A stretch of 7,721 nt of DNA from a virus (Duplodnaviria > Heunggongvirae > Uroviricota > Caudoviricetes). The notes under the pieces were generated by a model, which saw only the letters and a list, made by a program, of their open reading frames with translations, was not told where the DNA came from and made no database searches. Below, piece after piece: positions 1-7,721 of this stretch (position 1 is the stretch's first letter; each line of letters begins with the position of its first letter). Location: IMG/VR virus record IMGVR_UViG_3300039313_000002. One strand, written 5' to 3'. The position numbers were made by a program, and so were the translations under genes.

Positions 1-1704
1 CACCGCGCCACAATCAGGGCAGTTGCCGCCGCCGGTCTGACCGCAGGCGGTGCAGACTTTTTCCACTTCCTGTTGCGCTACTGGTTCAGGCTGTTTCGTT
101 ACTGGCTCGTTTTGTAACGCATTTGGACTGTTTTGTTCCGCTTTTTGGTAGTTCCGTTCCGATTCATGCTGGTTCTGGTTCACAGAATCGCGGGTCTGGA
201 TCCCCTTAACCCATTTCGGATCATTCGGGTCACTAATCCCTTCAACAAATTCACCACGTGATGCAGCAAGCAACTTATCAGCGTCAGGCTGGCTGATATT
301 GGCTGCCTGCATAATTTTGTTTACTTCGTCAGCGGTAACTTTTATCGGCTCTGGTTGTTCTGAATCTTCAGCGGTATCTACATTTTGCGGTAAGCCCGTG
401 TATGTGCCATTTTTTCGGGCAAAATATTCTTCTTTTGTGATTTCAGTGGCGCCAGCAGCCAGTGCCTTATCCAGACCAGAAAGTTTGTTTGCGCGACCGT
501 ATTTTTCTCCGTCCTTATCTGCGAAGAGGAAATAGAACGGCCCCTCACGCTCTACAGATGGTTCAGCTTCCGGCGCGGTTTCATTTTTTGGGATATCAGA
601 TACCTCAGTTTCCACTGCATCAGTTTGTGTTTCTGATGACTGGAGAACATCAACAGTGCCCAGGTCTGTTTCTTCATTCTCAAACACGCCCTTTGTCGTC
701 AGGTATTCGCAGATATATTTGTTCAGTGCTACGGGATCTTTGTGAATGTCGATCGGACGCTCACGGACAAGGCCAAAAATAGTCTGGCGGTCGTAGCGAA
801 GGGCATCAGGCTGTTTGCGCATTGATGCCGAGATACGCTTCCAGTCTTCGCGGTCGTTGTCGATAACTTCATTTTTTGCCCAGCGATGGATGCTGCCATC
901 AATGTTTCCGGCATCCACATCACCAGGCCAGAGAGCGTAGGCCAGTTCGTCATCCAGTGTTTTCCATGTCTGCTTGTATTCGCGATGGATGGCAGCAATG
1001 ACCGGGCTGATTTTTCCTGTTGAATTTTCAGTGTACTGTTGATTGGCTCTGGCGCGGGCGAGATCAACAACAGACGTGTATTTTCCGGTTTCCTTGCGTT
1101 CACCTTCGCGACGTTTTTTCCAGATGCGCATCTCTGCCTGAATTTCGGGCCATTTAGCACCAGGAATACATTTATGCTTAACCCACCCAATGGCGTGCAA
1201 CTTAAGCTCCGGATACATGGCGTTAACTTCTGGCATTTTCATCAACGCTTCAACGATATGTCCGTCGAATGTTGCCATGTCTTCCTGCAACAATTCCTGT
1301 GCGCTAATAACCATATCAACGGTGATGTTTTCACATGTGTCGAACTTAACCATGACAGCGTTCTGTACTTCAGGGGCCAGCTTGTCAAAAGTGACGTTCA
1401 TCGGATCGGATTCAGTCTCATTCGGGACAAAAGAAGCAGACTCCTCATCCCAGCGGTTTTCCTGCATATATTCAGCATCCCATGAATCGAGGGCAGGGCG
1501 GGGTATGCCAGGTTTATCCTCGCAGACAATAAATTTATAAGCGCAGTCCTGAGCAGCCGGATAATGTTCCAGGAATTGCCAGTGAAATTTTGCTCGAGCA
1601 CGGCGTTCGTCGCCAGCTTCAATGGCTGTGGCTACAGCCACAGCGCCTTCTTCCCTTGTTGCCAGTTCGTCAGGAATAGCGGCGCAAATAAAGACTTTAC
1701 TCAT
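1..1704 (-). CDS. Large early-left-operon protein, 5' partial in window (N-terminal 568 codons; continues beyond position 1); RecE-like (exodeoxyribonuclease VIII family) N-terminal region suggested by position and architecture
   Basis: ATG at 1704..1702 preceded by GAGG about 8 nt upstream. I translated the minus frame by hand across 1-1440 and 1441-1704 and found no stop. Acidic low-complexity linker stretches and a CxxC...CxxC segment at the window edge (plus 1-60). Large gene upstream of the repressor in the leftward operon, as for recE in Rac-type prophages. Product assignment is inference, not a search result. Confidence 0.6.
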   Translation of the reverse strand, partial: MSKVFICAAIPDELATREEGAVAVATAIEAGDERRARAKFHWQFLEHYPAAQDCAYKFIVCEDKPGIPRPALDSWDAEYMQENRWDEESASFVPNETESDPMNVTFDKLAPEVQNAVMVKFDTCENITVDMVISAQELLQEDMATFDGHIVEALMKMPEVNAMYPELKLHAIGWVKHKCIPGAKWPEIQAEMRIWKKRREGERKETGKYTSVVDLARARANQQYTENSTGKISPVIAAIHREYKQTWKTLDDELAYALWPGDVDAGNIDGSIHRWAKNEVIDNDREDWKRISASMRKQPDALRYDRQTIFGLVRERPIDIHKDPVALNKYICEYLTTKGVFENEETDLGTVDVLQSSETQTDAVETEVSDIPKNETAPEAEPSVEREGPFYFLFADKDGEKYGRANKLSGLDKALAAGATEITKEEYFARKNGTYTGLPQNVDTAEDSEQPEPIKVTADEVNKIMQAANISQPDADKLLAASRGEFVEGISDPNDPKWVKGIQTRDSVNQNQHESERNYQKAEQNSPNALQNEPVTKQPEPVAQQEVEKVCTACGQTGGGNCPDCGAV

Positions 1705-1797
1705 TTTGTTTTAACCTCATGACAGATTTAAGGATGAACAAATCCCTGCCATTGCTGGCATATAAGAATGAAACCGGATATTTATTACGGAACTGTT

Positions 1798-1989
1798 TTA
1801 AAGACCTGCCGAGATTTCGATATTATCCTGGTTAATAACTTTATCGACCGGGTAACAGTTACCGGGAATTTTCTGTTCGGTTGCTGCAGTCATACACTCC
1901 TGCATTGTCCTGTGAACACTGACTGCAATATCAACTGGCACTCCGGAAACAAGAAAAACTGTCAGAACAAGCGCAAATGCTGAATTCAT
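1798..1989 (-). CDS. Small protein (63 aa) with hydrophobic N-terminus (signal peptide or membrane anchor), two Cys in the C-terminal part
   Basis: ATG at 1989 with AAGGA upstream; start overlaps the stop of the upstream gene in an ATGA arrangement (translational coupling); N-terminus MNSAFALVLTVFLVSG is strongly hydrophobic. The track ORF 1798..2043 begins further upstream; the 1989 start is preferred on RBS grounds. Confidence 0.5.
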   Translation of the reverse strand: MNSAFALVLTVFLVSGVPVDIAVSVHRTMQECMTAATEQKIPGNCYPVDKVINQDNIEISAGL

Positions 1990-2174
1990 TGTGCACATCC
2001 TTTTGGCATCAGACGTAAACGAGCCAGCATTGAAACAATGCATATTTTATTTAATAGCTCCCGTTCTTGTTTTCTCTTGTTAATGGCATCTTCAGTAAAT
2101 ACAGGGTTACTGATAGTGACACCAATTTCAAAACAACCTTCAGACGTATTAACGTTTGGTAATAACGTTTTCAT
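1986..2174 (-). CDS. Small hypothetical protein (62 aa) of the leftward early operon
   Basis: ATG at 2174 preceded by GAGGA at about 7 nt spacing; stop overlaps the next start (ATGA). The track ORF 1986..2279 begins at an upstream GTG with no RBS. Confidence 0.5.
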   Translation of the reverse strand: MKTLLPNVNTSEGCFEIGVTISNPVFTEDAINKRKQERELLNKICIVSMLARLRLMPKGCAQ

Positions 2175-2344
2175 TATCGCGTCCTCAACAATAAATTTTG
2201 TGATGCAGAGCCTGGTGCCTCCAGGTGACGTTAACCAGTTAACAATTAACGTCGGATACAGAGAATCCACCCATAACACTGTTTTTGGTTTTAACTGTTC
2301 CGCGTGCGCTTAGCCGCATTCACCGCATAACAAAATTCACTTTA

Positions 2345-2388
2345 AAAACGGCGGCAGAGCAGTCACGGAGTAAAACTGATACCGCCAA
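2345..2388 (-). terminator. Candidate hairpin plus U-tract on the minus strand (possible internal attenuator/terminator of the leftward operon)
   Basis: Minus strand reads GGCGG-(26 nt loop with nested CAGT/ACTG)-GCCGCC followed by GTTTTTAAA. Long loop makes this a weak candidate. Confidence 0.2.
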
Positions 2389-2660
2389 ACGTCACCAGAA
2401 AATTGATAACAGAGGGCGTTGCAGCGGGGTTGTCACTTAAGCGTATGGTCAACCTGACAACCCGGTGTCCTCAACGGGGAAGGAATAACCCCGCCATACT
2501 TACCGCCGCGCCATTTTGCGGGTTGCCACAACCGGAAGCGCACGGTCGAATTAAATTTAACGACACCGTACAGTGAGACGAACTTCGCCGTGCGCTTTCG
2601 TGTTGTGTGCCTGCTTTTAACCACGTCAGGCGAGGTGGTATCCTTAAAATCACCACAGTT

Positions 2661-3236
2661 TTAAGGATTCATTAAGCAATGTCGCAACCACCAATAAATC
2701 CGCTTAAGAACATGAAAATTGATTACTGGTATAAAGCGCTTACAGTTGTTGGCGCTGCGTTGTTTGTCTTTAATGGAACGTCTTTTTTTGACAGATATCC
2801 CGTTGTTCCATTGGGTTTTTTGTCCTCCGGCATCTTTTTTATTGGTTTGGGGGAGTGGATTAATCACCCTCTCAAAGTGAGATTTATTGGCCCTGGAGTT
2901 TGGACTCGTGGATATAATCGTTCTTCGTGCGCACTCGGTATCATCTTCGACATACTTGGTTGTTTCCTGATTGTTACAGGAGTCGTCAAGTTCTTCTGAT
3001 GTAAAACCGCAAATGGGGCACGTAACGGGAATTTTGAAAAGCGTTTCTCCGGGTTCCAGAACAAAATTTTCTGCGGTCTGATTTTGCTTCTCATATTTGT
3101 GCTCCGCGTCATTGTGAGAGCACATTCTTATTCTGAGTGCCTGTTTAAACTCACTGAAGCTGAGAGCTTCTTCGCCTTCGGCAAGGCCTTCGAAGTATTC
3201 TTCGTAAGCCTTTTCCATGATTGTGTCGAAATCCAT
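2661..3236 (-). CDS. Acidic protein with CPICG zinc-ribbon-like motif; N-terminal ~80 aa look protein-like, C-terminal ~110 aa are K/R/N-rich and may be antisense read-through
   Basis: ATG at 3236 preceded by AGGTGAG; start is 1 nt after the TGA of the upstream 51-aa gene (TGAtATG coupling). No in-frame stop until 2661. The track ORF begins at 3278, but the 3236 start has the better RBS. Confidence 0.45.
   Translation of the reverse strand: MDFDTIMEKAYEEYFEGLAEGEEALSFSEFKQALRIRMCSHNDAEHKYEKQNQTAENFVLEPGETLFKIPVTCPICGFTSEELDDSCNNQETTKYVEDDTECARRTIISTSPNSRANKSHFERVINPLPQTNKKDAGGQKTQWNNGISVKKRRSIKDKQRSANNCKRFIPVINFHVLKRIYWWLRHCLMNP
2679..2999 (+). CDS. Candidate small membrane protein (106 aa, 2-3 predicted transmembrane helices), opposite orientation to the surrounding operon (moron-like)
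   Basis: ATG at 2679 with AAGGA about 11 nt upstream; hydrophobic stretches LTVVGAALFVF, VVPLGFLSSGIFFIGLG and ALGIIFDILGCFLIVTGVV. It lies entirely antisense to the 3' half of the minus ORF 2661..3236, so only one of the two readings may be real here. Confidence 0.4.
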   Translation: MSQPPINPLKNMKIDYWYKALTVVGAALFVFNGTSFFDRYPVVPLGFLSSGIFFIGLGEWINHPLKVRFIGPGVWTRGYNRSSCALGIIFDILGCFLIVTGVVKFF

Positions 3237-3237
3237 A

Positions 3238-3393
3238 TCACTCACCTGAGTTTCTTTCCAGCCAGCGACGGGCACCATTTTCGGTTTTAAACGTTTTGCT
3301 TTTGGTATACGTCATCGCGGTGAACGTGCCGTCCTGGTTGGGGAACACGCCACATACCAGAGATTCGCTGTTGCCAAGATCGATAGTATCCAT
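3238..3393 (-). CDS. Small hypothetical protein (51 aa), first gene of the leftward early operon
   Basis: ATG at 3393 preceded by GAGGT at about 5 nt spacing; immediately downstream of the OL-like operators; stop TGA at 3240..3238 abuts the next start. The track ORF begins at 3447. Confidence 0.5.
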   Translation of the reverse strand: MDTIDLGNSESLVCGVFPNQDGTFTAMTYTKSKTFKTENGARRWLERNSGE

Positions 3394-3472
3394 GCTGACC
3401 TCATTTCCCCTTAACGCCGGGGTAGCGGAACTGTTTGCTGAGAACACCGTGCGGTGTCTTGATGGAAAGTAA

Positions 3473-3529
3473 TTTAGAATAACCTAACATGAGAGGCAAG
3501 TGTTTTTTGTTAGATTGGTCTAACAAAAA
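3473..3529. promoter_or_regulatory. OL-like operator region: perfect palindrome TGTTAGA-ttgg-TCTAACA (3508-3525, arms extendable to 3504-3529) plus a weaker copy TTTAGA-ataa-CCTAAC (3473-3488)
   Basis: Inverted repeats read directly from the sequence. The 18-bp site is identical in half-sites and spacer length to the site at 4019-4036 on the other side of the repressor gene. A leftward promoter is expected here but its -35/-10 could not be assigned confidently. Confidence 0.6.
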
Positions 3530-3561
3530 GAGTGGGCGCAACTAATCACTTGAAAAGAATG

Positions 3562-3969
3562 TTATTTTATTGATTTATTTTTACGCGCTTTAAGCATTTC
3601 TTCGAAGAGTTTGTTGAAGTTTTCTACTCTTGCGCGCATTTCAGACAGCAAGGCTTCCTGCTCGGAAGATGGAAGAGCATCGAATAATTCGATCAATTCT
3701 TTGTGGTTGGGAGTTAGCTCTGTTTCCACATGAAGTTCTTGTGCAGGCACTGGTGCCTTGTCTTCGTCACCAAACATTAGCCATGTAGGTGAGCACTTCA
3801 GAGCATCCGCTAAAGCAAACAATCGTTTTCCGACTGGCTGGGTTTCGTCTCTTTCCCATTGTGAAATTGTGACGTGAGCAACTCCAGCGAGGCGCGCAGC
3901 TTCTCGTTGTGTTAAGCGTAATTCTTTTCGTCGCGCCAGAACTCGCTGGCCTAGGGTTCTTGTATCCAT
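3562..3969 (-). CDS. Prophage repressor, DicA/CI-like HTH (XRE family), 135 aa
   Basis: HTH segment LTQREAARLAGVAHVTISQWER, followed by FALADALKCSPTWLMFGDEDK and a C-terminal EMRARVENFNKLFEEMLKAR, which I recognise from memory as the DicA-type repressor pattern. Divergent from a Cro-like gene and flanked by palindromic operators. Weak SD, possibly translated from a short or leaderless transcript. Confidence 0.85.
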   Translation of the reverse strand: MDTRTLGQRVLARRKELRLTQREAARLAGVAHVTISQWERDETQPVGKRLFALADALKCSPTWLMFGDEDKAPVPAQELHVETELTPNHKELIELFDALPSSEQEALLSEMRARVENFNKLFEEMLKARKNKSIK

Positions 3970-3970
3970 A

Positions 3971-4036
3971 GTTAGGTAATTCTAATTTTTCTTGACTTAG
4001 ATATCCCGCGCACAATAATGTTAGAAAAGTCTAACA
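3971..4036. promoter_or_regulatory. OR-like divergent control region: operator GTTAGG-taat-TCTAAT (3971-3986), rightward promoter -35 TTGACT (3992-3997) and -10 AATAAT (4014-4019), operator TGTTAGA-aaag-TCTAACA (4019-4036) overlapping the -10 and start region
   Basis: Palindromes and hexamers read directly; 16-bp spacer between -35 and -10; RBS AAGAGGGG follows at 4035-4043 before the Cro-like ATG at 4049. Confidence 0.55.
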
Positions 4037-4048
4037 AGAGGGGCTTTG

Positions 4049-4276
4049 ATGCTTAAAGTTGACGCAATTACTTTTTTTGGCAGCAAAACAAAGCTTGCCA
4101 ATGCCGCAGGAGTGAGACTGGCAAGTGTTGCTGCTTGGGGGATACTGGTTCCTGAAGGTCGCGCGATGCGTCTACAGGAGGCATCTGGCGGGGAGCTTCT
4201 GTATGATCCCAAGGTTTATGACGAATATCGTAAGACGAAGCGGGCGGGGCGGTTGAACAATGAAAATCACTCCTGA
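4049..4276 (+). CDS. Cro-like DNA-binding protein of the DicC/YdaS family (75 aa)
   Basis: Divergent from the repressor; ATG at 4049 with AAGAGGGG 5 nt upstream (the track's 4046 start is a TTG one codon earlier). Sequence FFGSKTKLANAAGVRLASVAAW...EGRAMRLQEASGGEL is typical of YdaS/DicC-type Cro analogues as I recall them. Confidence 0.8.
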   Translation: MLKVDAITFFGSKTKLANAAGVRLASVAAWGILVPEGRAMRLQEASGGELLYDPKVYDEYRKTKRAGRLNNENHS

Positions 4277-4781
4277 ACAGGCTCGTGAGGCTCTGGATGC
4301 CTGGATATGTCGACCAGGAATGACACAGGAGCAGGCGACGATATTAATCACTGAAGCATTCTGGGCTTTGAAAGAGCGCCCGAACATCGATGTTCAGCGT
4401 GTCACAGATGAAGGTGGCGCGGTTGATCAGCGAGCGCTTGGCGTTAATCGAGTGAAGATATTCGAACGCTGGAAGGCTATCGACACCAGGGATAAGCGTG
4501 AAAAGTTCACGGCGCTAGTGCCTGCAATTATGGAGGCTATCCGGATTAATGATTTCAGGTTGTATCGTGAAATTAGTGACGGAAAAAGCATCACGTACAT
4601 GATCGCCGGGTTAAACAAAGAATATGGCGATGTGGTGGAGTCCGGACTGCTTTTTGCTGATCCTGCCGTAGTGGATCGTGAAACTGACGAACTTATAGAA
4701 AAAGCAATTGCTTTCAAACTTGCGTATCGACAGCAATACCAACAAAAAGCTGGATGGAATTATGAGCCTTCTTTTTGCTGA
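4260..4781 (+). CDS. YdaT-family protein (173 aa), occupying the cII-like position
   Basis: Immediately follows and overlaps the Cro-like gene by 17 nt; central segment KIFERWKAIDTRDKREKFTALVPAIMEAI matches the conserved core I recall for YdaT-family proteins (often annotated as toxin YdaT). Confidence 0.7.
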   Translation: MKITPEQAREALDAWICRPGMTQEQATILITEAFWALKERPNIDVQRVTDEGGAVDQRALGVNRVKIFERWKAIDTRDKREKFTALVPAIMEAIRINDFRLYREISDGKSITYMIAGLNKEYGDVVESGLLFADPAVVDRETDELIEKAIAFKLAYRQQYQQKAGWNYEPSFC

Positions 4782-5727
4782 ACGCCCACTGGTTATAAAC
4801 ACACAGCTTGCGATGAAGATTGGCTTAAATGAAGCCATTGTGTTGCAGCAGTTGCATTACTGGTTGAGAGATACCAATTCCGGCATGGAATGTGATGGTG
4901 TTCGCTGGATTTACAACACAACGGAACAATGGTTGGAACAGTTCCCATTCTGGTCAGAGTCAACGTTAAAGCGCGCGTTTGCAAGTCTGAAAACGCTGGG
5001 GCTTTTGCGTTGTGAAAAGCTCAATAAATCAAAGCGCGATATGACCAATTTCTACACGATTAACTATGGGAGCGAGCTTTTAGATGATGGCAAATTGAGC
5101 GAATCCATCGGTTCAAAATGCGCCGCTCCATCAGGTCAAAATGACACGATGGAAGAGGTCAAAATGAAACGCTCCATTGGTTCAAAACGACCCAATGTCA
5201 TCGGGTCAAAATGGCCCGATGATCCTACAGAGAATACAACAGAGATTACTACAGAGAATAAAAACACTTTTCGTCCGGAAGCTTCGCAACCGGACCCGCA
5301 GACGGCTGAACAGGATTTTTTAATCCGGCACCCTGGCGCAGTTGTGTTTAGTGCGAAAAAACGCCAGTGGGGTAGCCAGGAGGATCTGGCGTGTGCGCAG
5401 TGGATATGGGGGCGGATCGTGGGTCTCTACGAACAGGCCGCCAGTGATGATGGCGAGATCATGCGACCAAAAGAGCCTAACTGGACTGTCTGGGCCAATG
5501 ATGTGCGCACAATGCGGATGCTGGATGGCAGAAGCCACAGACAAATTTGTGAAATGTTTGGTCGGGTACAGCGGGATCCATTCTGGGTAAAAAACATCAT
5601 GAGCCCGTCAAAGCTCCGCGAAAAATGGGACGAACTGGTCATCCGCCTGGGGCGTTCACCTGTACAGCGTTGTGTTAATCATATTTCTGAACCGGATACA
5701 GAAATTCCGCCTGGTTTCAGAGGATAA
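4762..5727 (+). CDS. Phage replication initiation protein (lambda O-like / replisome organiser), 321 aa
   Basis: ATG at 4762 with GGATGG upstream, 20-nt overlap with the preceding gene (alternative in-frame ATG at 4708 lies inside that gene). N-terminal region LLFAERPLVINTQLAMKIGLNEAIVLQQLHYWL looks like a replication-initiator N-terminal DNA-binding domain; the gene contains iterons and an A-rich tract internally, as lambda O does with ori-lambda. Confidence 0.75.
   Translation: MSLLFAERPLVINTQLAMKIGLNEAIVLQQLHYWLRDTNSGMECDGVRWIYNTTEQWLEQFPFWSESTLKRAFASLKTLGLLRCEKLNKSKRDMTNFYTINYGSELLDDGKLSESIGSKCAAPSGQNDTMEEVKMKRSIGSKRPNVIGSKWPDDPTENTTEITTENKNTFRPEASQPDPQTAEQDFLIRHPGAVVFSAKKRQWGSQEDLACAQWIWGRIVGLYEQAASDDGEIMRPKEPNWTVWANDVRTMRMLDGRSHRQICEMFGRVQRDPFWVKNIMSPSKLREKWDELVIRLGRSPVQRCVNHISEPDTEIPPGFRG
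5101..5213. repeat. Five direct iterons at ~23-bp spacing, core GG(T)TCAAAA(T/C)G (iteron cores 5106-5120, 5129-5143, 5152-5166, 5175-5189, 5199-5213); putative replication origin inside the initiator gene
   Basis: Direct repeats read from the sequence: catcggttcaaaatg, catcaggtcaaaatg, gaagaggtcaaaatg, cattggttcaaaacg, catcgggtcaaaatg. They encode the reiterated IGSK/SGQN peptide segment. Confidence 0.6.
5226..5265. repeat. A-rich tract with three ACAGAGA repeats at exact 12-bp period (5227-5233, 5239-5245, 5251-5257), adjacent to the iterons; possible DNA-unwinding element of the origin
   Basis: TACAGAGAATAcaACAGAGAttacTACAGAGAATAAAAAC read directly; placement just 3' of the iterons parallels the lambda ori layout. 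Confidence 0.45.
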
Positions 5728-5767
5728 GTTTTGATTTCAGGTCATGAGGTAATTTTAAGGGGGACTT

Positions 5768-6169
5768 GTGGCAAAAGTTTTTACACAAGAAGAGCGGGAA
5801 AAAATTAAAGGGCAGGTGGTGGAACTCGTGCGCCAGAGCGGTCGTGAGACGTTACGGCAACTGGAAGCTAAAACAGGTGCGACTAGATATCTGATGAGCG
5901 TTCTTGCCAGAGAGCTGGTAGCCAGTGGCGATGTATACAACTCCGGCTACGGGTTATTCCCGTCTGAACAGGCGCGTAAGGACTGGCAAAACGCCCGCAA
6001 AAAACTCTCGAGGGCAAAGGTGAAGAAAACAGCTGTGGTTGATCCGGACGTTATCTGGTCGTTACCTGATGGAGAAATACGTCGCTACGACAGTCGCCTA
6101 AACATAATCTGTCGCGAGTGCCGGATGAGTGAAGTTATGCAGCGCATACTGGCATTTTATCAGGGATAA
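5768..6169 (+). CDS. Hypothetical protein (133 aa), basic, possible helix-turn-helix; sits where a helicase loader would be expected
   Basis: GTG start at 5768 with strong RBS AAGGGGG 5 nt upstream; stop TAA at 6167-6169; segment TLRQLEAKTGATRYLMSVLAREL resembles an HTH. No family recognised. Confidence 0.6.
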   Translation: MAKVFTQEEREKIKGQVVELVRQSGRETLRQLEAKTGATRYLMSVLARELVASGDVYNSGYGLFPSEQARKDWQNARKKLSRAKVKKTAVVDPDVIWSLPDGEIRRYDSRLNIICRECRMSEVMQRILAFYQG

Positions 6170-6265
6170 TGTTAGGTATTTTAGACGTTACTAGATTAAA
6201 AAGCATTAGTTCAGGAGTGAATTGACATTCTCATTTTTCATGGCACAGGGTAGATCTGGCGTGGT

Positions 6266-6291
6266 TGTCCGCTTTGTGCCAAAAGCGGACA
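6266..6291. terminator. GC-rich hairpin (10-bp stem TGTCCGCTTT / AAAGCGGACA, 6-nt loop) in the convergent intergenic region; candidate terminator
   Basis: Perfect inverted repeat read directly; followed on the plus strand by a moderately T-rich stretch (AATAATTT); no clean U-tract on the minus side. Confidence 0.3.
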
Positions 6292-6387
6292 TCGAATAAT
6301 TTCAGCAGCACTCAACCTTATTAACCAAATCGCCTCAACTCATATGGACATGCATCCGGAAGTGCCAACTTCGTAAACTTATTCACT

Positions 6388-7566
6388 TTAAGTCTGAGCC
6401 TCACTCTCTTGGCCATAAGTGGCTTGCCAGTATCTCGCCGTAGGGTTCATTAGAATGTGCAATACAAGCCACCATGCAAAAATGCAGGGAGGTTGATTGT
6501 AGTAACCGGCAGGCACATATCCGTGAGCTAGTTGATTTCGTAAATCACCATAGATTTTATCTACCAGTAAGGCCTGAAGATTGCCAATTATGTCTACGCC
6601 GAAAGCTTCAATAATCAGTGGATTATCTAGTAATCCCTTGAGTCCATTTCGCTCTTGCGAACCGTCCCCGTGAAGCTGCGATGGTTCCTCACCTTTAATT
6701 TTAGCCACATATCTCAGACTATTTTCGAGCTGGGGAATCAACACGTGGCATGCCGTCATAAAATCTCCATTGAAACCGCAAACCATACCCTTGATGAAAA
6801 ACTCTTCATGCCCAAACGGGATGAAGGGATGATTGATGAACATATCGCGAAAAAACGCCTCCGAGATTGGATATTTCATTGTGATCTCATCTGTAGCAGG
6901 AATAATTTGCCCAGCTACTGCCAACTCATGGTCGATACGCATTCTCGTCATCATTATGGGCCAAATAACTGCCCCATTTGCATCATCAATCCCCAATCCT
7001 GCGGGTATGCGAGCAAGTGTCATTCCCTCATGATCAATATGTGTTGATCCAAACATCCAAGCTATGCTGTTGGCCTTTTGTTCTATTGCTTGAGCCTTAA
7101 GTCTCTCAATGCTGGTTGGCCGACAGACCAGCATCGCAAGTCTGAAAACCATATCAAACAAATCTCTTCCGACTACCCGACTCTTGGCTTGATGGACAAT
7201 CTCACTAATATCTTGAGGGGGAGACTGAAGGATAGACATCTGGTGACGGGATTCGATTTGGTAATCACGCATTTCTTCATACAGCGCAAGACGTTCTATT
7301 CGGGTTCCTGGAATATTAGCCAGTGCTTCAATAGCATTCTGCATGCAGGCTGCCGAAATCATACCGCCATCTTGGAATTTTGACTCTTCCAGATGTGTAT
7401 CGGCAAGAAGCCGCCAGAATTCAAACTGTGTATCTCTGTCACAGCACCTATTCGCAATCGGGATTGCGGTTTTACAGGCATCGACGGCAAATGAAAATAA
7501 TTTTTGAGCCAGATAGTTTTTTGTCAGAAACAGGAGTTCCTGGGCAATAAAAGATGGCTCACTCAC
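6388..7566 (-). CDS. Hypothetical 392-aa protein with C-terminal R-x4-H (HEPN-like) motif; candidate abortive-infection / defence or toxin cargo (moron)
   Basis: Long uninterrupted minus-strand ORF convergent with the phage rightward operon. First in-frame start is GTG at 7566 with no obvious SD; the next ATG is at codon 69, so the start is uncertain. Motif LRNQLAHG at residues 342-349 (plus 6523-6540) matches the RNxxxH signature of HEPN-type RNases; a second R-x4-H (RMRIDH) lies at residues 208-213. All three minus frames hit stops within 7690-7721, so the gene does not extend out of the window. Confidence 0.7.
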   Translation of the reverse strand: MSEPSFIAQELLFLTKNYLAQKLFSFAVDACKTAIPIANRCCDRDTQFEFWRLLADTHLEESKFQDGGMISAACMQNAIEALANIPGTRIERLALYEEMRDYQIESRHQMSILQSPPQDISEIVHQAKSRVVGRDLFDMVFRLAMLVCRPTSIERLKAQAIEQKANSIAWMFGSTHIDHEGMTLARIPAGLGIDDANGAVIWPIMMTRMRIDHELAVAGQIIPATDEITMKYPISEAFFRDMFINHPFIPFGHEEFFIKGMVCGFNGDFMTACHVLIPQLENSLRYVAKIKGEEPSQLHGDGSQERNGLKGLLDNPLIIEAFGVDIIGNLQALLVDKIYGDLRNQLAHGYVPAGYYNQPPCIFAWWLVLHILMNPTARYWQATYGQESEAQT

Positions 7567-7721
7567 TTTACAGTCGATATCGAGTTGCAGGAGTCGCAGC
7601 GGATAAGGTGAATCGCCTTGTTCTCTGGTACGTTCATACTCTGCTAGGGAAGGTGCGAATAAGCGGGGAAATTCTTCTCGGCTGACTCAGTCATTTCATT
7701 TCTTCATGTTTGAGCCGATTT

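What the first reader, a model, noticed from the sequence alone, without database searches (positions are those of the whole stretch)
6388..7721. Convergent 392-aa gene with HEPN-like RNxxxH motif: candidate uncharacterised prophage defence or toxin cargo
A 392-aa minus-strand ORF sits tail-to-tail with the replication module, where lambdoid phages often carry morons. Its C-terminus has LRNQLAHG (R343-x4-H348), matching the HEPN RNase signature found in Abi, RnlA/LsoA and Cas13-type proteins. I do not recognise the rest of the protein as any characterised family. The start is atypical (GTG, no SD, next ATG at codon 69), and the partner or regulator may lie beyond 7721.
Basis: partly seen in the sequence, partly recalled or inferred. 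Interest (0 to 1): 0.75.

Follow-up and report, generated by a model that had tools for sequence, protein, structure and literature searches.

The report
IS5-broken prophage HEPN defence-candidate gene
The "392-aa gene" is the tail end of a 595-aa prophage cargo gene cut in two by an IS5 insertion. Its C-terminus is a real HEPN (RNase-type) domain, but the family is already catalogued as an untested anti-phage candidate and this copy is probably dead.

Summary
The ORF (6388-7566, minus strand) and the LRNQLAHG motif are there, but the ORF is not a complete gene. Window 7648-7721 is the first 74 nt of IS5, inserted at a CTAG. Everything up to 7647 is about 99.7% identical to a Qin-like prophage of E. 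coli ATCC 25922, where the intact gene encodes 595 aa. That protein has an N-terminal DUF7380 domain, TPR-like helical repeats and a C-terminal DUF4209 domain. IS5 sits between codons 176 and 177, which explains the odd GTG start without a ribosome-binding site.

None of this is new:
- DUF4209 was classed as HEPN in 2013.
- The family is the untested PADLOC candidate PDC-S39.
- DefensePredictor flags this exact protein.
- A distant homologue from the P2 hotspot was cloned in 2022 and is listed only among tested systems that were not validated.

Homologues sit in classic variable cargo slots without a conserved partner gene. My best reading is an insertionally inactivated copy of a single-protein, HEPN-based abortive-infection candidate. 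Interest is low to moderate.

The parts
6388..7647 (-). Retained 3' part (codons 177-595 plus stop) of a 595-aa DUF7380/TPR-like/DUF4209 gene; identical to intact alleles such as WP_021514655.1
   Evidence: 1478/1478 nt identical to L001 9001-10478. The intact CDS is annotated at L001 9219-11006. PADLOC PDC-S39 matches at E about 1e-74 but covers only profile positions about 218-602 of 615.
6388..7566 (-).
   Evidence: No ribosome-binding-site-like sequence upstream (GATATCGACTGTAAA-GTG).
7648..7721 (-). Terminal 74 nt of IS5, the end downstream of the transposase gene insH. The transposase would be read on the minus strand, the same direction as the remnant gene.
   Evidence: 74/74 identity to the first 74 nt of K-12 IS5A (L015 956-1029). 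This stretch occurs at thousands of places in E. coli genomes.
7644..7647 (.). CTAG, the IS5 target site at the junction (codon 177 plus the first base of codon 178)
   Evidence: Junction ...CTGCTAG|GGAAGGTGCG versus the intact ...CTGCTAGTAGATG. The preference of IS5 for CTAG/YTAR is established knowledge.
6391..6978 (-). C-terminal HEPN-fold domain (residues 400-595 of the full protein); Pfam DUF4209 covers 6457-6726
6523..6540 (-). Rx4H catalytic-type motif R-N-Q-L-A-H (R343/H348 of the ORF; R546/H551 of the full protein), followed by an invariant G
   Evidence: R and H 207/207, G 206/207, N 173/207 or H 30/207 in the family alignment. Invariant in the 41-sequence alignment.
6712..6735 (-). 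Conserved P-Q-x-E-N-S-L-R motif in the first long helix of the HEPN domain (full-protein residues 481-488)
   Evidence: Q482 205/207, E484 205/207, R488 206/207. These positions are invariant in alignment A1.
6266..6291 (.). 10-bp perfect hairpin in the 218-nt spacer between the two convergent genes (possible bidirectional transcript end)
   Evidence: MFE -14.7 (minus strand) and -17.0 (plus strand) kcal/mol, z -2.6 and -2.8. It fails the T-tract criterion of the terminator scan.
5768..6169 (+). DUF977 gene, the last gene of the replication module, convergent with the remnant (context only)

Best explanation
The feature is a pseudogene: the 3' two-thirds of a single-gene prophage cargo locus that an IS5 insertion cut between codons 176 and 177.

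Shown:
- The intact protein (595 aa) has an N-terminal DUF7380 domain, a TPR-like helical solenoid and a C-terminal HEPN domain (Pfam DUF4209).
- The HEPN domain carries an invariant Rx4H dyad and a conserved QxENSLR helix.
- The gene stands alone, with no conserved partner.
- It sits in variable accessory slots of temperate phages and other mobile regions.
- The family is the untested PADLOC candidate PDC-S39.

Inferred:
- The intact protein is a self-contained abortive-infection-type sensor-effector.
- The DUF7380/TPR part holds the enzyme inactive and recognises an infection cue, most likely a phage protein.
- The HEPN domains of two or more protomers then form a composite, metal-independent RNase site that cleaves tRNA, mRNA or rRNA and halts phage production.

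In this window the copy has lost the whole DUF7380 domain, its promoter, its ribosome-binding site and its start codon, so it is most likely not expressed as a functional protein.

My confidence in the anatomy (IS5-truncated DUF7380-DUF4209 gene with a HEPN fold) is about 0.95. My confidence that the family is an anti-phage RNase is about 0.5-0.6. My confidence that this copy is inactive is about 0.85.
For: IS5 truncation. The identical junction occurs on independent metagenome contigs.

Architecture: DUF7380 at aa 4-166 and DUF4209 at aa 484-573. All 41 aligned homologues have both domains. The middle region gives weak TPR/kinesin-light-chain matches.

HEPN:
- R546 and H551 are invariant in 207 sequences.
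- The C-terminal model has pLDDT 92.7.
- The published classification agrees.

Defence association:
- PADLOC PDC-S39 at E 1e-74, and 1e-102 for the intact allele. The PDC candidate set as a whole was derived from genes embedded in BREX, DISARM and type I R-M systems.
- DefensePredictor gives WP_021514655.1 a log-odds of 4.34 ('Predicted novel defense gene', paper cutoff 4). A second E. coli DUF4209 protein scores 7.4.
- Family members are the 13th and 55th entries, with 193 and 76 occurrences, in the Table S5B list of the P2 gpA-gpQ defence hotspot.
- Other homologues lie between Q and the holin gene in an Enterobacter prophage, next to a NERD/UvrD-type giant protein, near CBASS and IS elements, and overlapping a DUF4238 gene.
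- K-12 Qin has the relBE toxin-antitoxin pair in the same slot.

Solo gene: no conserved neighbour.

Sporadic distribution: 152 of 5426 complete E. coli genomes.

No start signals in the remnant.
Against: - No family member has a demonstrated phenotype.
- The P2-hotspot homologue from E. coli S88 (pFR103, 'Putative HEPN') is about 23% identical to this protein but has the same architecture. It was cloned with its native promoter and tested on eight phages. It is listed only among 'additional tested systems', not among the validated ones.
- The DefensePredictor score of this protein is only just above the cutoff, and neither E. coli DUF4209 protein appears in the tables of tested units.
- RNase activity, oligomerisation and the sensing role of the N-terminal part are all inferred by analogy.
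- Eukaryotic members of DUF4209 (C6orf70/ERMARD) are not immune proteins.
- insH in IS5 reads toward the remnant, so read-through transcription cannot be excluded.
Confidence: 0.6

Rival explanations
1. The family is mobile-element cargo but not an anti-phage system. It could be a selfish toxin or addiction module, or an RNA-processing or regulatory RNase that serves the prophage itself, for example in lysogeny control or host takeover. HEPN is only its catalytic module.
For: One family member was tested against eight phages and is not among the validated systems. Eukaryotic DUF4209 proteins are conserved housekeeping-type proteins predicted to act in RNA degradation at the ER. The gene is 99% or more conserved and intact in about 95% of the genomes that carry this allele, which would fit any useful function.
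Against: There is no adjacent antitoxin or immunity gene in any context examined. The gene repeatedly sits in slots that hold validated defence genes, namely the P2 tin/old hotspot and next to DUF4238 and CBASS. Two independent computational defence predictors flag it. An eight-phage panel is narrow; HepS, for example, acts only on siphoviruses.
Confidence: 0.25
2. The remnant is still expressed, either by read-through from the IS5 transposase gene or from an internal start such as the ATG at ORF codon 69. It would then act as an N-terminally truncated, possibly deregulated, HEPN protein.
For: insH in IS5 is oriented toward the remnant. The reading frame is open from inside IS5. The complete HEPN domain and half of the helical repeats are retained. 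One weak promoter-like site lies inside the ORF on the minus strand (7527-7500).
Against: There is no ATG, GTG or TTG between the in-frame TGA in IS5 and the GTG, and no ribosome-binding-site-like sequence before the GTG. Promoter-like sites are no more frequent than in shuffled sequence. The lost domain is present in all 41 aligned homologues, and its key residues (R105, D108, W111, Y128, R151) are at least 97% conserved. An unleashed RNase would probably be counter-selected, yet the allele occurs in several independent samples.
Confidence: 0.07
3. The HEPN-fold domain is non-catalytic, acting as a ligand-binding or scaffold module as in MtlR or the kanamycin nucleotidyltransferase C-terminal domain. 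The protein would then be a TPR-type adaptor.
Against: The full catalytic-type signature is invariant across 207 sequences at a median 26% identity: R546, H551, G552, N/H547, plus Q482, E484 and R488. Anantharaman et al. predict this family to be catalytically active.
Confidence: 0.07
4. The ORF and motif are chance features of non-coding prophage DNA.
For: Rx4-6H motifs occur in 85% of shuffles, and the start codon is atypical.
Against: Family matches at E 1e-74. There are 8052 homologous representative clusters. The motif is invariant. The structure model is high-confidence.
Confidence: 0.01

Closest known systems
PADLOC phage-defence candidate PDC-S39 (the DUF7380 + DUF4209 family), including the P2-hotspot 'Putative HEPN' (pFR103, E. 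coli S88) and P2-EC46 ORF612
   Same: Same family and same three-part architecture: HMM E 1e-74 for the remnant and 1e-102 for the intact allele. The P2 proteins hit the same models and carry RH...HG at the equivalent position. All are single-gene cargo of temperate phages.
   Different: The P2 proteins are only about 23% identical and sit in the gpA-gpQ hotspot of a myovirus rather than after the replication module of a Qin-like lambdoid prophage. The copy in the window is truncated by IS5. The family is an untested candidate, and pFR103 is not among the validated systems.
HepS of Salmonella prophage Gifsy-1 (Sargen et al., Nature 2026, PMC13043305)
   Same: A solo HEPN protein with an Rx4-6H site and no partner gene. 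It is encoded in a lambdoid prophage between the replication genes and the antirepressor genes. It is inactive by default and is activated by a phage protein (the tail tip protein J) to cut tRNA anticodon loops. This is the best-characterised functional analogue.
   Different: HepS homologues are under 250 aa and consist of the HEPN domain alone. There is no detectable sequence relationship: the profile search of PDB sequences found no HEPN chain. This protein has about 400 extra N-terminal residues (DUF7380 + TPR-like). Trigger, substrate and oligomeric state are unknown.
C6orf70/ERMARD family of eukaryotes (Pfam PF13910, DUF4209), as defined in Anantharaman et al. 2013
   Same: The same Pfam domain with the conserved Rx4H. 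The 2013 analysis notes bacterial members fused to TPR and found in R-M-related operons.
   Different: The eukaryotic proteins carry a transmembrane segment and are predicted to act at the ER. They are vertically conserved back to the last eukaryotic common ancestor, not sporadic mobile cargo.
Other single-protein HEPN defence proteins: HEC-08 (DUF3644 HEPN + zinc ribbons), DS-11 (CBS + HEPN), AbiJ
   Same: A HEPN effector fused to a presumed sensor in one polypeptide. Mutating the Rx4-6H histidine (HEC-08) or HEPN catalytic residues (DS-11) abolishes defence. DefensePredictor's Table S5 lists the AbiJ C-terminal domain as the nearest known defence protein for this protein (probability about 66-73, coverage about 0.2).
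   Different: The sensor domains are different and the HEPN subfamily is different. No Pfam HEPN family other than DUF4209 is hit, even weakly.
HEPN toxins of HEPN-MNT toxin-antitoxin pairs (e.g. PDB 7ae2, 5yep)
   Different: Sequence identity is 6-7%. Those toxins are about 130-140 aa and need an adjacent MNT antitoxin, which is absent from every locus examined.

Membership tests
HEPN superfamily | All-alpha helical-bundle HEPN fold | tested here: met
HEPN superfamily | Conserved Rx4-6H motif | tested here: met
   R546-x4-H551 is present in 207/207 homologues. The other three Rx4-6H matches in the ORF are not among the conserved positions.
HEPN superfamily | Endoribonuclease activity from a composite active site formed by dimerisation | not testable with these tools
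   No biochemical data and no multimer prediction were available.
Pfam DUF4209 (PF13910) / C6orf70-type HEPN | HMM score above the Pfam gathering threshold | tested here: met
   34.9 bits against a cutoff of 22.3 at ORF residues 281-370. 41/41 homologues match.
PADLOC PDC-S39 (DUF7380 + DUF4209 single-gene candidate) | Full-length match to the PDC-S39 protein models | tested here: not met
   The remnant matches at E 3e-74 but only over profile positions about 218-602 of 615. The intact allele in other genomes matches positions 54-602 at E 3e-102. The gene therefore belongs to the family, but the copy in the window is incomplete.
PADLOC PDC-S39 (DUF7380 + DUF4209 single-gene candidate) | N-terminal DUF7380 domain present | tested here: not met
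   DUF7380 covers residues 4-166 of the intact protein. IS5 removes codons 1-176 from the window copy.
Anti-phage defence system (functional class) | Experimentally shown protection against phage | not testable with these tools
   PDC systems are explicitly untested. The P2-hotspot homologue pFR103 is listed only among non-validated tested systems. The DUF4209 proteins are absent from DefensePredictor's tables of tested units.
Anti-phage defence system (functional class) | Sporadic distribution and location in variable or defence-rich slots of mobile elements | tested here: met
   152/5426 E. coli genomes. Contexts: P2 gpA-gpQ hotspot, between Q and the holin gene, near CBASS and IS elements, overlapping a DUF4238 gene, next to a NERD/UvrD protein, and relBE in the same slot of K-12 Qin.
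HepS (Gifsy-1 solo HEPN) | Stand-alone HEPN protein under 250 aa, homologous to STM14_3211 | tested here: not met
   The intact protein is 595 aa with two extra regions. The profile search of PDB sequences gave no HEPN hit. HepS homologues were defined as under 250 aa with no extra domains. It is an analogue, not a member.
Type II HEPN-MNT toxin-antitoxin | Adjacent minimal nucleotidyltransferase antitoxin gene | tested here: not met
   No such neighbour in the E. coli, Vibrio, Enterobacter, Pseudomonas or Oleispira loci, or in the P0067 metagenome-derived locus.
IS5 | Terminal sequence identical to IS5 and insertion at a CTAG/YTAR target | tested here: met
   74/74 nt identical to the K-12 IS5A end, abutting CTAG. 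The rest of the element and the target duplication lie outside the window.

The most novel reading that the evidence does not exclude
DUF7380-TPR-HEPN proteins would be a large, still unvalidated class of single-protein abortive-infection RNases (about 8000 clusters at 50% identity, near-uniform length of about 600 aa). The strongly conserved DUF7380 pocket (R105, D108, W111, Y128, R151) would be a new kind of infection sensor, and the HEPN domain is homologous to eukaryotic ERMARD, which would add a prokaryote-eukaryote link. The repeated IS knock-outs of this one prophage gene (IS5 here, IS2 and an IS3-family element elsewhere) would then reflect a fitness or autoimmunity cost.
Probability: 0.4. 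Interest if true: 0.55.

Novelty: already known. Interest (0 to 1): 0.25.

Why it matters
As a discovery it adds little.
- The gene is identical to proteins already annotated in RefSeq (DUF4209/DUF7380 domain-containing protein).
- Its HEPN nature was published in 2013.
- The family is in PADLOC as the candidate PDC-S39.
- DefensePredictor lists this very protein.
- The copy in the window is broken by IS5.

"Known" here means catalogued and predicted, not experimentally understood. No member of this large family (8052 representative clusters) has a demonstrated function, and the one reported test was on a narrow phage panel. If the intact allele from ATCC 25922 proved to be a phage-triggered RNase, it would add a new sensor domain to the HEPN abortive-infection repertoire and give a bacterial model for the ERMARD-type HEPN domain.

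The practical lesson for the scan: an atypical start next to the window edge should prompt a check for an IS end.

Tried and rejected
- A sequence-profile search of all PDB chains gave only weak kinesin-light-chain TPR hits (E 3e-4) and no HEPN chain, so no solved relative is detectable by sequence.
- NCBIfam gave nothing. PHROGs gave only unknown-function families.
- Scanning all 41 homologues against Pfam at E up to 5 found no weak hits to other HEPN families.
- I looked for the exact IS5 junction in 5426 complete E. coli genomes and found none. It was found only on short draft or metagenome contigs that end inside IS5.
- I looked for a partner, antitoxin or regulator gene in seven contexts and found nothing conserved.
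- Literature searches for DUF7380 and for ERMARD + HEPN found nothing. PDC-S39 appears only in lists of predicted systems. The supplements of the DefensePredictor preprint are not held, so I used the Science version instead.
- The promoter and terminator scan of 6100-7721 gave counts no higher than in shuffled sequence.
- I considered membership of HepS and rejected it (different size, no homology). I considered a HEPN-MNT toxin-antitoxin pair and rejected it (no MNT neighbour).

Full report
**1. What is in the sequence**

The ORF finder lists a minus-strand ORF at 6388..7566 (392 aa, GTG start). Its translation contains LRNQLAHG, with R343 at 6538-6540 and H348 at 6523-6525. It converges on the plus-strand DUF977 gene (5768-6169), the last gene of the cro / YdaT-like / replication block.

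The reading frame stays open for another 40 codons upstream of the GTG, up to a TGA, and contains no ATG, GTG or TTG. The GTG has no ribosome-binding-site-like sequence in front of it. All family profiles match the ORF only with their C-terminal two-thirds: PADLOC PDC-S39 positions about 218-602 of 615 and PHROG 5183 positions 290-610 of 612. This pointed to a truncated gene.

**2. The truncation is an IS5 insertion**

- Megablast against 5426 complete E. coli genomes matched window 6170-7647 at 100% inside an annotated 1788-nt gene called 'DUF4209 (or DUF7380) domain-containing protein'. No genome matched across position 7647.
- The last 74 nt (7648-7721) occur at thousands of places in E. 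coli genomes and fall within annotated IS5-family elements.
- They are 74/74 identical to the first 74 nt of K-12 IS5A. The junction reads ...CTGCTAG|GGAAGGTGCG, which is an insertion at the CTAG target typical of IS5.
- Window 1-7647 is 99.7% identical to a Qin-like prophage next to rspB in E. coli ATCC 25922.
- In that prophage and in strain 190 the intact gene is 595 codons, starts with ATG, and diverges from hokD across a 675-nt spacer that holds only tiny ORFs.
- IS5 sits exactly between codons 176 and 177.
- The same junction is present on several short metagenome contigs that end inside IS5, so the allele circulates.

**3. What the intact protein is**

- Pfam finds DUF7380 at residues 4-166 and DUF4209 at 484-573. 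All 41 aligned homologues, down to 23% identity, have both.
- The middle region gives weak TPR-type matches by sequence and by structure.
- An exhaustive profile search finds 8052 representative clusters at E up to 1e-3 and 3187 at E up to 1e-30. The best 150 are nearly all 570-670 aa and match over nearly their full length, so this is a large family with a fixed architecture.
- IS5 therefore removes the conserved N-terminal domain almost exactly. That domain contains residues R105, D108, W111, Y128 and R151, each 97-99% conserved.

**4. Is it HEPN?**

The motif alone proves little. Rx4-6H occurs in 85% of shuffles of this protein, and the ORF has four such matches. Three lines of evidence support the HEPN assignment:

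- R546 and H551 (R343 and H348 in ORF numbering) are invariant in 207/207 family members with a median 26% identity. G552 is 206/207, position 547 is N or H in 203/207, and an upstream helix carries a conserved Q482, E484 and R488.
- Anantharaman et al. 2013 (PMC3710099) already list DUF4209, the C6orf70 family, as a HEPN family with the motif conserved. They predict it to be catalytically active, fused to TPR, and found in R-M-related operons in bacteria.

**5. Is it variable cargo or defence?**

Distribution:
- This allele is present in 152 of 5426 complete E. coli genomes, always chromosomal and at least 99% identical.
- In K-12's Qin prophage the equivalent slot between the immunity/replication remnant and hokD holds flxA, ydfV and the relBE toxin-antitoxin pair instead.

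Contexts of homologues:
- The gpA-gpQ (tin/old) hotspot of P2-like phages, which Rousset et al. 2022 showed to be a defence hotspot. Their Table S5B lists 'DUF4209' single-gene cassettes as the 13th and 55th entries, with 193 and 76 occurrences.
- Between Q and the holin gene in an Enterobacter kobei prophage.
- A two-gene islet in Vibrio cholerae.
- Beside a NERD/UvrD-type giant protein in Pseudomonas syringae.
- Among IS elements near a CBASS operon in Oleispira.
- Overlapping a DUF4238 gene. DUF4238 is a validated P2-hotspot defence protein.
- No neighbour is conserved across these contexts, so the gene acts alone.

Computational predictions:
- PADLOC calls the family PDC-S39. The PDC set comprises 145 untested candidates derived from genes embedded in BREX, DISARM and type I R-M systems.
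- DefensePredictor (Science 2026) scores WP_021514655.1, the intact form of this gene, at log-odds 4.34 against a cutoff of 4. It scores another E. coli DUF4209 protein at 7.4. Neither appears in the tables of tested units.

Against a defence role:
- Rousset et al. cloned the P2-hotspot homologue from E. coli S88 (pFR103, 'Putative HEPN'). Its first 66 residues match the vB_EcoM-569R9 protein 65/66. It appears only in the table of additional tested systems, not among the validated ones.
- That panel had eight phages, so the negative result is weak, but it is the only experimental datum I found.

**6. Mechanism**

Shown:
- Domain architecture.
- HEPN fold.
- Invariant catalytic-type residues.
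- Solo gene.
- Location in mobile, variable slots.
- Disruption by IS5.

Inferred by analogy with characterised single-protein HEPN defences (HepS of Gifsy-1; HEC-08; DS-11):
- The N-terminal DUF7380/TPR part senses an infection cue and releases the HEPN domains.
- The HEPN domains pair to form a composite RNase site that cuts tRNA or other RNA, giving abortive infection.

In the window the gene lacks its promoter, start codon and sensor domain, so it is most likely inactive. The only caveat is that insH of IS5 reads toward it, so read-through transcription is possible. Translation signals are absent.

**7. Comparison and novelty**

The gene belongs to Pfam DUF4209 and to the PDC-S39 family, although the copy here fails the full-length criteria. 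It is a member of the HEPN superfamily by fold and motif. It is not a HepS homologue and not a HEPN-MNT toxin. Nothing about it lies outside what has already been catalogued. The unexplored part is experimental: no member has a demonstrated function.

**8. Verdict**

The finding is already known as a computational candidate, and interest is 0.25. The most novel reading still open is that the family is a true defence system with a new sensor domain and a link to ERMARD, at a probability of about 0.4.

Noticed in passing
L017 1-86 (NCBI GCA_026281845.1, JALZTL010000070.1); equivalent to window 7566/7567: A different assembly carries the same 392-aa 'ORF' because an IS2 end abuts the GTG directly (86/86 nt identical to the K-12 IS2E end). 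This is an independent IS2 insertion at codon 203/204 of the same gene.
   Followed up: partly
NZ_AP045170.1 2743231-2746331 (hit H41); also hits H93-H95: In complete genome JNEC-KY174 the same gene is split by an IS3-family element, a third independent IS disruption. Three further sampled genomes (H93-H95) match only part of the gene, and 5 of the 152 genomes have less than 80% coverage in a single place. I did not test whether the gene is hit more often than its neighbours.
   Followed up: no
P0012 (369 aa, 116 member sequences) and P0013 (335 aa, 36 members): These are abundant N-terminal fragments of the same protein that end cleanly at residues 369 and 335. The cause is unknown (contig ends, nonsense mutations or further insertions).
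   Followed up: no
window 2349-2400 (-): DicF small RNA (Rfam RF00039, 72.5 bits, E 6e-15). dicB and ydfD map by homology to about 1797-2173 (-). The window therefore carries the Qin-type cell-division-inhibitor module.
   Followed up: partly
window 1 to about 1704 (-): A large exonuclease gene (2472 nt in ATCC 25922, frameshifted in strain 190) runs off the window start, so it is missing from the ORF list.
   Followed up: no
window 4260-4781 (+): The gene in the cII-like position after cro is annotated 'toxin YdaT family protein' (Pfam YdaT_toxin). It overlaps the following 339-aa replication-type ORF.
   Followed up: no
intact protein residues 100-155 (lost from the window; L001 about 10542-10709): DUF7380 has a very strongly conserved set of residues (R105, D108, W111, A124, Y128, R151, each 97-99% in 207 sequences). 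This suggests a defined binding or catalytic pocket.
   Followed up: no
window 6266-6291: A perfect 10-bp hairpin (TGTCCGCTTT / AAAGCGGACA, 6-nt loop) lies between the convergent genes. It lacks a T-tract and may be a bidirectional transcript-end or RNA-stability element.
   Followed up: partly
L013 8001-10927: In one distant homologue (P0067) the PDC-S39 gene overlaps a downstream DUF4238 gene by 4 nt. DUF4238 alone is a validated P2-hotspot defence protein, so this may be a two-gene cassette.
   Followed up: no
L016 5120-6738 (K-12 Qin): K-12 Qin carries relB-relE, ydfV and flxA where this prophage carries the DUF4209 gene next to hokD. The slot to the left of hokD is an exchangeable cargo position.
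   Followed up: partly
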